Origin: a virus
Taxonomy: Duplodnaviria; Caudoviricetes
DNA: 64,000 bases
Virus record (IMG/VR): IMGVR_UViG_3300036770_005357
Strand: one strand, 5' to 3'
In this document: in pieces, positions 8,274-9,764 of the stretch
Layout: each line of letters starts with the position of its first letter
Position numbering within the stretch: the stretch's first letter is position 1
Translations under genes and position numbers: made by a program
Notes under the pieces: generated by a model
What the model was told of the DNA's origin: nothing
Database searches by the model: none
What the model saw: only the letters and a program-made list of their open reading frames with translations

Positions 8274-8386
8274 ATTTAATTTACTTTTTAAGTCTACCAG
8301 CTTTTTTCTAGAAGTCAATGGGAAAAATATAACAAGTTTTCAGGATCTCACTCACATTCACCATATGGTGATAGCGATATGTTCCC

Positions 8387-8454
8387 TATAAGTCCCTAGG
8401 AATTGAACCTAGTCTCCTGTAATTACCGGCGCATTACCCGAATGCTGAACTTAC
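8387..8454 (-). ncRNA. tRNA-like element with aberrant anticodon arm
   Basis: Acceptor GTAAGTT/GACTTAT, D-like GCA-TTCGGGTAA-TGC, T arm CTAGG-TTCAATT-CCTAG; anticodon arm shortened and mismatched. Confidence 0.55.
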
Positions 8455-8481
8455 GCGTCTATCTGTACCTTGTTATTTATA

Positions 8482-8553
8482 TAGTATACAGAGGATTTGA
8501 ACCTCTCATTCACCACTGGTGATCAGCTCAGTTTAGAATGACCGCCTGTATAT
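8482..8553 (-). ncRNA. Second tRNA-like element with aberrant anticodon arm
   Basis: T arm AGAGG-TTCAAAT-CCTCT, acceptor TATAC/GTATA, TCACC-AGT-GGTGA hairpin in place of an anticodon arm. Confidence 0.5.
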
Positions 8554-8571
8554 ATTATACAAAAAAATCTA

Positions 8572-8729
8572 TGTTTGAGGCAAGAGCATTTCTACATATT
8601 CAGCGGCAGTTTATTAATGGTGTAACATTAACACTTGCATCACAGATATAATTACACTCATATCTGATCTAACGCTAGATAAGTATCTCTCTGTTGCATC
8701 TCAATTACCTTTCGGTAACACCCCAAACA
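8572..8729 (-). ncRNA. Unclassified structured RNA, about 158 nt
   Basis: Closing stem TGTTTGGGG/CCTCAAACA; internal TTACC-GAAA-GGTAA, CAGATAT/ATATCTG and TTAATG/CATTAA hairpins. Confidence 0.5.
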
Positions 8730-8735
8730 AAATTG

Positions 8736-8831
8736 TTTTGGATTCATGCGGTGTATTGGTTATTTTCCGATCCGCAGTGTCCATCCCCTAAACCAATAGG
8801 TGACACCTTTCATTAGCGGTTGAACCCAAAA
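8736..8831 (-). ncRNA. Unclassified structured RNA with kissing loops, 96 nt
   Basis: Closing stem TTTTGGGTTCA/TGAATCCAAAA; hairpins GTGTC/GACAC and TGCGG/CCGCA; loops TTGGTT and AACCAA are complementary. Confidence 0.6.
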
Positions 8832-8852
8832 ATTATTAAAAGAACTAAAATT

Positions 8853-9061
8853 GTTGATATAGAGGGATTGATTACCCTCACGAAGTTTGGTGGTTGCCCT
8901 TGCTAAAGTTTCTTTCAAGTTATTTCCTTGTGTATGTTTGCTTTAACTCTTCTGTATTATTTCAAATACATTCAGATGATTTTTCATTGAGTTTAACCCC
9001 AACAAAGTCAGACTATTGTCATTAGTCCTATCACCTTGCGTCTATTTCCGCCATATATCAA
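8853..9061 (-). ncRNA. tRNA-Leu-like ends enclosing a long insertion
   Basis: 5' TGATATA-TGGCGGAAATAGACGC and 3' GAGGG-TAATCAAT-CCCTC-TATATCA resemble tRNA-Leu halves; about 150 nt lie between them. Confidence 0.55.
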
Positions 9062-9079
9062 AAAGAACAAAAAAATTGG

Positions 9080-9198
9080 TTTGTTAGCTTCGATGACCGC
9101 ATTTAACTGCCTGTATTATACCCCTACTGGGCGATTACCGACAATCGTGTCGGCATCATTCTCCGTCTACTCATATAATACCATCTATAACTAACAAA
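9080..9198 (-). ncRNA. Unclassified structured RNA immediately 3' of tRNA-Asp
   Basis: Closing stem TTTGTTAGT/GCTAACAAA; nested TATTATA/TATAATA, CCGAC-ACGATT-GTCGG and GCA-GTTAAA-TGC. Confidence 0.5.
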
Positions 9199-9200
9199 AG

Positions 9201-9276
9201 TGGCGGTCTATACGAGATTCGCACTCGTTACTGAATCGTGACAGGATTCTATGATAAACTCATTCAACAATAGACC
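9201..9276 (-). tRNA. tRNA-Asp(GTC)
   Basis: GGTCTAT/ATAGACC acceptor, GAATC-CTGTCAC-GATTC anticodon arm, ACGAG-TGCGAAT-CTCGT T arm, G73 and encoded CCA. Confidence 0.9.
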
Positions 9277-9284
9277 AAAATCTT

Positions 9285-9382
9285 AAGATTGACATCCAAG
9301 TATTTATCAGTGAATCGTAACCCACTGCCCTCTATTTCTTGGTTTTCCGGATAACAACCGGATGAACTTAATCGTCAATCTT
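9285..9382 (-). ncRNA. Unclassified structured RNA, 98 nt
   Basis: Closing stem AAGATTGAC/GTCAATCTT; CCGG/CCGG, CCAAG/CTTGG and CAGTG/CACTG stems; promoter-like TTTACA-N16-TAAGAT just upstream. Confidence 0.55.
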
Positions 9383-9438
9383 GAAAATATCTTATCAGAA
9401 CTTTCTGACTTGTAAAGAACTTTTTTTAAAATCTTTGG

Positions 9439-9530
9439 GGTTGAGGGTGACTGCGCCAGTCGGAGCGCTCTCTTTTACAGTTAAGTAAACCGTGCGGACT
9501 GTTCCCCTACACCAAGTCACCACCTCAACC
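9439..9530 (-). ncRNA. Unclassified four-way-junction RNA starting at a promoter TSS
   Basis: Closing stem GGTTGAGG(T)GGTGACT/AGTCACCCTCAACC with three hairpins; CAGTC and GACTG loops complementary; begins 8 nt after the -10 box at 9539-9544. Confidence 0.65.
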
Positions 9531-9764
9531 TTGAAAATAGTCTACCAGCTTTTTTCTAGAAGTCAACAGATTTTTTAACGGTACTTCAGGCGGATGAAGA
9601 TTTCCTTGTTCTCCTCCAAAACCGTGTCAAGAATCTTGCCGCAGAACTCGCGCCATTCAGTCTCGGTAACTTGTCCGGTTTGGAACTTGCGGAACATGAT
9701 GTCGTATTCGTTCTTCATCGTGAAAACAGTTTACCAGCTTTCTTGGAGAAGTCAACCGCTTTTT

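What the first reader, a model, noticed from the sequence alone, without database searches (positions are those of the whole stretch)
8736..8831. Three-way RNA with 6-bp kissing loops
An 11-bp closing stem holds two adjacent hairpins whose loops TTGGTT and AACCAA are exact complements, and the pairing is extendable to TATTGGTT/AACCAATA. The joining segment CGCTAATGAAAG is purine-rich, as in riboswitch or ribozyme cores. It is not upstream of any ORF, so a cis-regulatory role is doubtful.
Basis: partly seen in the sequence, partly recalled or inferred. Interest (0 to 1): 0.66.

Follow-up and report, generated by a model that had tools for sequence, protein, structure and literature searches.

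The report
Swappable small RNA in phage operon
A giant uncultured phage carries, among its tRNA-type genes, a real 90-base folded RNA gene that relatives gain or lose as one clean block; it matches no catalogued RNA family, its proposed kissing loops are possible but unproven, and its job is unknown.

Summary
The element is real and lies on the minus strand (8831 to 8736). It is one module of a 1.2-kb tRNA/ncRNA cluster in a 305-kb phage. I found 9 further copies (5 distinct sequences) in two phage lineages. The closing stem shows compensatory changes, a second stem keeps a G-C to G·U change, and the 72-nt core is invariant. Relatives lack exactly this 97-nt block, or carry other RNA modules in the same slot behind a boxA-like spacer. 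It is therefore an optional stand-alone RNA gene, not a leader. The kissing contact is only modestly above chance (6/6 p~0.05; 8 nt p~0.01), has no covariation support, and has competing pairings. AACCAA sits inside a 20-nt loop. There is no Rfam match and no known ribozyme or riboswitch core. Best reading: a stable small RNA cut from the tRNA-type transcript and acting in trans through a weakly paired apical 'seed' that the second loop masks; the partner is unknown. One lead: that seed is a perfect 13-nt complement of another cluster RNA in relatives (p~0.004), but the two do not co-occur reliably. The scan noted the surrounding array earlier in this genome, and found no look-alike on other DNA.

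The parts
8736..8831 (-). Whole RNA module (likely mature form about 8827-8739, ~89 nt)
   Evidence: empty site in relatives
8821..8831 (-). P1 5' arm (7-bp core 8827-8821 plus U-rich flank)
   Evidence: pair probability 0.9-1.0; two pairs changed on both sides
8807..8820 (-). 14-nt joiner J1/2, invariant; can alternatively pair with the P2 tip
8777..8806 (-). P2 hairpin: 5-bp base, asymmetric bulge, weak 4-bp tip, 6-nt loop L2 at 8796-8791
   Evidence: sequence; pair probability ~0.2 (0.7 in C84U variants); no variation
8784..8796 (-). 13-nt apical 'seed' (positions 36-48), complementary to a stretch of another cluster RNA (module Y) in relatives
   Evidence: p~0.004
8747..8776 (-). P3 hairpin: 5-bp stem and 20-nt loop L3 (8771-8752)
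   Evidence: pair probability ~0.9; G-C to G·U change kept
8754..8761 (-). L3 segment complementary to 8798-8791 (proposed kissing partner)
   Evidence: p 0.006-0.014; no covariation
8736..8746 (-). P1 3' arm
8830..8848 (-). Conserved boxA-like spacer that heads the exchangeable slot
   Evidence: consensus GYTCTTTAANA in bioRxiv 10.1101/091223, matched with one extra T
9539..9566 (-). Phage early promoter (TTGACT-16-TAGACT) heading the RNA cluster; a second one at 9416-9389
   Evidence: consensus match only
8329..9531 (-). Surrounding cluster of stem-closed RNA modules with tRNA-Asp (9276-9201)

Best explanation
An optional gene for a small stable non-coding RNA inside a phage tRNA-type operon. 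Shown: strand, P1 pairing, stand-alone cassette behaviour, operon setting. Inferred: it is co-transcribed from the upstream early promoters, probably with boxA/Nus help, and cut out at the A/U-rich spacers as tRNAs and T4 species I/II RNAs are. P1 stacked on P3 (7+5 bp, like a tRNA top half) defines and protects the ends. The released ~89-nt RNA acts in trans. Most likely the weakly paired P2 tip is the working surface: held closed in cis by 6-8 bp to the P3 loop, and used to engage a partner (an RNA by strand exchange, or an RNA-binding host defence or translation protein as a decoy). My odds: real stable ncRNA ~0.85; L2-L3 contact forms ~0.6; trans-acting binder or decoy rather than catalyst or sensor ~0.5.
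For: All substitutions but one terminal change keep pairing, including a double change G5-C92 to A-U. Both wobble changes read as G·U on the minus strand, the strand of all neighbouring tRNAs. The three fixed differences between lineages all fall in the 14-nt P1 core and none in the other 74 nt (p=0.003; 0.011 if P1 is counted as 22 nt), so unpaired core bases are under sequence constraint. The RNA is a 116-bp island shared by two lineages that otherwise share only mosaic patches. L326, L327 and L328 lack exactly the block. L008, L289, L303, L324 and L332 carry other modules in the slot. Neighbours differ between copies: tRNA-Arg, tRNA-like modules. Precedent: the T4 primary transcript yields eight tRNAs plus species I and II RNAs (PMC2330249).
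Against: Only 5 distinct sequences, so P2 and the kissing pairs never vary. The shuffle control for covariation is weak (39/500). Folding z-score -1.7. tRNA-like sequence signatures are not significant (p 0.09-0.16). No partner is demonstrated, and no antisense target above chance exists in the window, G001 or G002.
Confidence: 0.5

Rival explanations
1. Antisense or partner RNA for module Y or a shared third RNA: the 13-nt seed leaves the cis kissing contact and pairs with its complement.
For: A perfect 13-nt complement in Y of L324; one G·U in L007, L331 and L332. 8 of 2000 shuffled cores reach 13 nt in 12 kb of cluster sequence. Duplex about -22 kcal/mol against -6.7 for the kiss; both RNAs lie in one operon in L007.
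Against: Found after many pattern tests. Co-occurrence is poor: Y is absent from the window, G001 and the L002 locus, and the RNA is absent from the L324 and L332 loci. The Y stretch has its own partners in cis. The net gain on co-folding is small (-6.3 and -1.4 kcal/mol).
Confidence: 0.14
2. New class of self-cleaving ribozyme that helps cut up the polycistronic transcript, as theta ribozymes do beside phage tRNAs.
For: Invariant unpaired core; tRNA-cluster setting; compact pseudoknotted size; the joiner holds near-motifs (CUAAUGA, GCUAAU).
Against: No Rfam ribozyme hit at E<=10. The near-motifs lack their required partner elements. HDV descriptor hits lack the L3 consensus. Theta ribozymes lie within 5 nt of a tRNA (PMC10879173), whereas this lies ~20 nt behind the upstream module. 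Relatives delete it and keep the same neighbours.
Confidence: 0.1
3. Free aptamer that sponges a nucleotide signal or metabolite (riboswitch-like fold used in trans).
For: Three-way junction with a loop-loop contact recalls purine riboswitches (own knowledge); long invariant joiner; patchy distribution like accessory anti-defence genes.
Against: No Rfam riboswitch match. Junction lengths differ, with no J2/3 at all. No downstream gene or expression platform.
Confidence: 0.08
4. The loops pair between molecules and build dimers or rings, as in phi29 pRNA or the ROOL/GOLLD cages.
For: P2 and P3 abut without a linker and could stack end to end, pointing the loops apart (inference). ROOL and GOLLD sit in phage tRNA islands and use intermolecular kissing loops (PMC12286853).
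Against: Much smaller than those RNAs; far from packaging genes; P3 can equally stack on P1, which leaves P2 free to reach L3.
Confidence: 0.08
5. Neutral or selfish inverted-repeat DNA element that hitchhikes by recombination at the shared spacer.
For: In L007 the block has 9-bp perfect terminal inverted repeats and a 5-bp direct repeat at its ends.
Against: One copy per record, always in the same slot and orientation; G·U-type changes on one strand; core more conserved than the ends.
Confidence: 0.05
6. Message for a 17-residue peptide (ORF at 8813-8760 inside the invariant core).
For: The ORF is intact in all copies.
Against: An open run of this length is expected by chance about half the time. 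No ribosome-binding site; the start is internal; no synonymous changes.
Confidence: 0.03

Closest known systems
T4 species I and II RNAs (stable non-tRNA RNAs of the T4 tRNA cluster; PMC2330249)
   Same: Small non-tRNA RNA genes co-transcribed with phage tRNAs, variably present among related phages.
   Different: No sequence similarity to any cultured-phage record; different fold; processing not shown here.
GOLLD and ROOL RNAs (PMC12286853)
   Same: Phage tRNA-island ncRNAs of unknown function that use kissing loops.
   Different: About one-sixth to one-ninth the size; no Rfam match; oligomerisation untested.
Purine riboswitch aptamer family
   Same: Three-way junction with a proposed L2-L3 contact.
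   Different: Junctions 14/0/0 nt; 20-nt L3; no core motif; no gene or expression platform downstream; no Rfam hit.
Theta (HDV-like) ribozymes (PMC10879173)
   Same: Small pseudoknotted RNAs in phage tRNA clusters.
   Different: No HDV double-pseudoknot topology or L3 consensus; ends pair with each other; not within 5 nt of a tRNA end.
YrlA Y RNA and other tRNA mimics (PMC4201824)
   Same: Faint T-loop-like (4-12) and D-arm-like (34-51) stretches in YrlA order; 7+5-bp stack; the model's best non-self hits were tRNA genes (E 0.56 and 3.3).
   Different: Signatures not significant; no Rfam YrlA hit; the T-like stretch is buried in P1.

Membership tests
Any Rfam 15 family | Covariance-model score at gathering threshold | tested here: not met
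   only a chance snoRNA hit at E 9.6
Purine riboswitch | Three-way junction with loop-loop contact | tested here: inconclusive
   geometry possible; contact p~0.01, no covariation
Purine riboswitch | Ligand-binding J2/3 of about 8 nt and conserved core | tested here: not met
   J2/3 is 0 nt; family features from own knowledge
Purine riboswitch | Upstream of a regulated gene with an expression platform | tested here: not met
   followed by RNA modules or tRNAs; no terminator
Hammerhead ribozyme | CUGANGA and GAAA core around three stems | tested here: not met
   only a CUAAUGA near-match, not followed by stem II and GAAA
HDV-like / theta ribozyme | P1-P2-P3-P1.1 nested double pseudoknot with L3 consensus and catalytic C in J4/2 | tested here: not met
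Twister, twister sister, pistol | Family core motifs | tested here: not met
   (motifs from own knowledge) and Rfam
Self-cleaving ribozymes in general | Site-specific self-cleavage | not testable with these tools
   needs a cleavage assay
tRNA / tmRNA | Cloverleaf or TLD recognised by ARAGORN or Rfam | tested here: not met
tRNA / tmRNA | Alanine identity G3·U70 with A73 on the terminal stem | tested here: not met
   present in window, L199, L256; A-U in L001 and G-C in L002, L007
YrlA Y RNA | Significant T-arm / acceptor-like / D-arm module | tested here: inconclusive
   profile p 0.09-0.16; no Rfam hit
YrlA Y RNA | Adjacent Ro60 gene | not tested
   no targeted search for a Ro60 gene was run
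Stable non-tRNA RNAs of phage tRNA clusters (functional class) | Stem-closed non-coding gene within a tRNA operon, same strand | tested here: met
Stable non-tRNA RNAs of phage tRNA clusters (functional class) | Accumulates as a discrete processed RNA | not testable with these tools

The most novel reading that the evidence does not exclude
A toehold-masked phage small RNA, or a new ribozyme or free aptamer class. In the first form, the kissing contact is a safety catch on a 13-nt seed, and the RNA pairs with another exchangeable cluster RNA of its own or of a competing phage. The cluster would then be a swappable kit of interacting RNAs.
Probability: 0.2. Interest if true: 0.8.

Novelty: new variant of a known kind. 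Interest (0 to 1): 0.43.

Why it matters
Phage tRNA clusters have held unexplained stable RNAs since T4. This one is small enough to make and probe in a day, and natural with/without pairs of phages exist. It shows that these giant phages treat structured RNAs as plug-in cassettes behind a fixed spacer, as they do accessory protein genes. If it cleaves, binds a signal nucleotide or pairs with module Y, it would be a new RNA mechanism in phage-host or phage-phage conflict. On present evidence it is a genuine but rare orphan RNA of unknown function.

Tried and rejected
Rfam at gathering and E<=10: nothing. BLAST of cultured phages and plasmids: nothing meaningful. Metagenome scan: three more close copies. 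Genome collection: two hits in unrelated sequence, chance. Covariance-model searches of about 50 related-phage loci and 8 records: no divergent member. Structure-only descriptor over 0.84 Mb: no GC-rich analogue. Antisense targets in the window, G001 and G002: longest 11-12 nt, chance level. tRNA-ancestry profile test: not significant. Alanine-acceptor idea: not conserved. The 12/13 match to the module at 9503-9515 is one of 19 short repeat families, treated as chance. Literature search for the sequence: none. The supplement of the 10,006-candidate viral RNA catalogue (PMC10690425) is not held, so overlap with it is unchecked. No whole genome was available. Host not determined.

Full report
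Setting. The window comes from a 305-kb contig with phage-type genes: DNA helicase, DNA ligase and RNA ligase. It has a run of short minus-strand genes behind repeated TTGAC-N-TAGACT promoters. The finding lies in an ORF-free stretch, about 8330-9530, that holds tRNA-Asp and several stem-closed modules. No cultured phage is close. The host is unknown. Relatives carry N_methyl/SBP_bac_10 genes, which from my own knowledge hints at Planctomycetes or Verrucomicrobia.

Observation. The RNA reads on the minus strand; position 1 is window 8831. P1 pairs 1-11 with 86-96, with a 7-bp core and U/A flanks. A 14-nt joiner follows. P2 has a 5-bp base, an asymmetric bulge, a weak 4-bp tip and a 6-nt loop. 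P3 follows at once with 5 bp and a 20-nt loop, and runs directly into P1. In the nested ensemble P1 and P3 have pair probabilities near 0.9, P2 near 0.2; the joiner can instead pair with the P2 tip, and the P3 loop can form a short inner hairpin. The z-score is -1.7. The six-base complementarity alone has p=0.05; the eight-base form has p=0.006-0.014 and must open two P2 pairs. By a rough estimate of mine, the kissed state (open three-way form -19 to -20 kcal/mol, duplex -6.7, less a pseudoknot penalty) is about as stable as the nested minimum, so energy does not decide. The whole architecture was absent from 100 shuffles of the region.

Homologs. Exact-pattern scans gave L001, L002, L004 and L007 and L199, L239 and L256. 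A neighbouring protein gave L313 and L314. There are five distinct sequences. Positions 12-83 never vary. Pair 5/92 changes from G-C to A-U, pair 7/90 takes G·U, G-C and A-U, and pair 57/84 takes G-C and G·U. One terminal U-A pair breaks; 99.3% of cells pair, against 27-45% for slid controls. The shuffle control is weak (39/500), as expected with five rows. The copies fall into two lineages that share only mosaic patches, in which the RNA is a 116-bp island. The three fixed differences between lineages all lie in the P1 core (p=0.003 for 14 of 88 positions, 0.011 for 22 of 96), so the core, including its unpaired bases, is constrained in sequence. Searches for divergent members by pattern, model and descriptor failed. 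The kissing contact therefore has no covariation test.

Cassette behaviour. L326, L327 and L328 have the same flanks as L007 and L002 and lack exactly the 97-nt block. The block always follows the spacer at 8848-8830, which resembles the boxA consensus with one extra T. Other phages put different RNA modules behind the same spacer. One relative of the wider clade encodes a NusB-family protein. Downstream neighbours vary: another module in the window, a tRNA-like element in L199, and a short element followed by tRNA-Arg in L007. This argues for a stand-alone optional gene. It argues against control of a downstream gene and against an essential processing role.

Family tests. Rfam gives nothing. 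Hammerhead, twister, twister-sister, pistol and HDV cores are absent. Theta ribozymes are scored within 5 nt of a tRNA; this RNA is not so placed. The 7+5-bp P1/P3 stack resembles a tRNA top half, and the model's best weak hits were tRNA genes. A profile built from 56 clade tRNAs, however, scored the RNA at p 0.09-0.16, while a neighbouring tRNA-like module scored p 0.001. tRNA ancestry is a lead, not a result. Alanine-type ends occur in some copies only.

Partner lead. Positions 36-48, which contain L2, are a perfect 13-nt complement of a conserved stretch in another uncatalogued cluster RNA, module Y (L324:4245-4398; one G·U in L007, L331, L332). Only 8 of 2000 shuffled cores did as well. 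The match was noticed after many other pattern tests, and the two RNAs occur together only in L007/G002 among the stretches I could read. It supports the idea that the P2 tip is the recognition surface and that L3 masks it, but it does not establish a pair. No other antisense target exceeds chance.

Mechanism and verdict. The RNA is most likely transcribed with the cluster, cut out at the A/U spacers as T4 species I and II RNAs are, and acts in trans as a compact binder through a masked apical seed. Strand, terminal stem, operon setting and cassette exchange are shown. Expression, processing, the kiss and any partner are inferred. Catalysis, ligand binding and oligomer formation (compare) remain open at about 0.1 each. 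It works like the orphan stable RNAs of phage tRNA islands, but is not a member of any catalogued family. It is real and uncatalogued as far as I could check, but rare and of unknown function: interest 0.43.

Noticed in passing
L324:4245-4398; L007:1622-1768; L331:191-342; L332:1079-1232: Module Y: uncatalogued ~150-nt RNA with a covarying T-arm-like hairpin and a likely loop pseudoknot. It is collapsed to a short hairpin in L326. It carries the 13-nt complement of the finding's P2 tip.
   Followed up: partly
window 8830-8848 (-) and equivalent sites in 18 loci: A boxA-like spacer heads an exchangeable slot filled by at least five different RNA modules. Similar GTTCTTT-A motifs precede many tRNA genes in these phages.
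   Followed up: partly
L008:7824-7960; L256:679-850: RNA module containing GGACCGGAAGGAA, which recalls the SRP RNA domain IV loop (from memory); no Rfam hit at gathering.
   Followed up: no
L285:16628-17009: Phage-encoded NusB-family gene (PF01029) in a clade relative, consistent with antitermination of RNA clusters.
   Followed up: no
L007:908-1190; L326, L327 and L324 equivalents: Two tandem conserved RNA modules that begin GCAGCAATGA and end GATCTGC, upstream of the slot in lineage B; no Rfam match.
   Followed up: no
L326:8407-8598; L332:73-264; similar stretch L007:625-840: Group I intron inside a tRNA-Leu gene of lineage B phages (Rfam RF00028); L002 has the intron-free tRNA-Leu.
   Followed up: no
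window 9503-9515 (-) versus 8784-8796 (-): The tRNA-shaped module at 9439-9530 shares 12 of 13 bases with the finding's P2 tip; treated as chance, but it is the same segment that matches module Y.
   Followed up: partly
window 8853-9061 (-); L199:1168-1375; L289: tRNA-Leu-like scaffold with a long insert directly upstream; its terminal stem differs between relatives while staying paired.
   Followed up: no
window 8572-8729 (-): The next module downstream is also optional: it is absent in L199, where the finding joins the tRNA-like module directly.
   Followed up: partly
window 49636-51093 (-): Phage-encoded Amt ammonium transporter, with 24 close cluster members.
   Followed up: no
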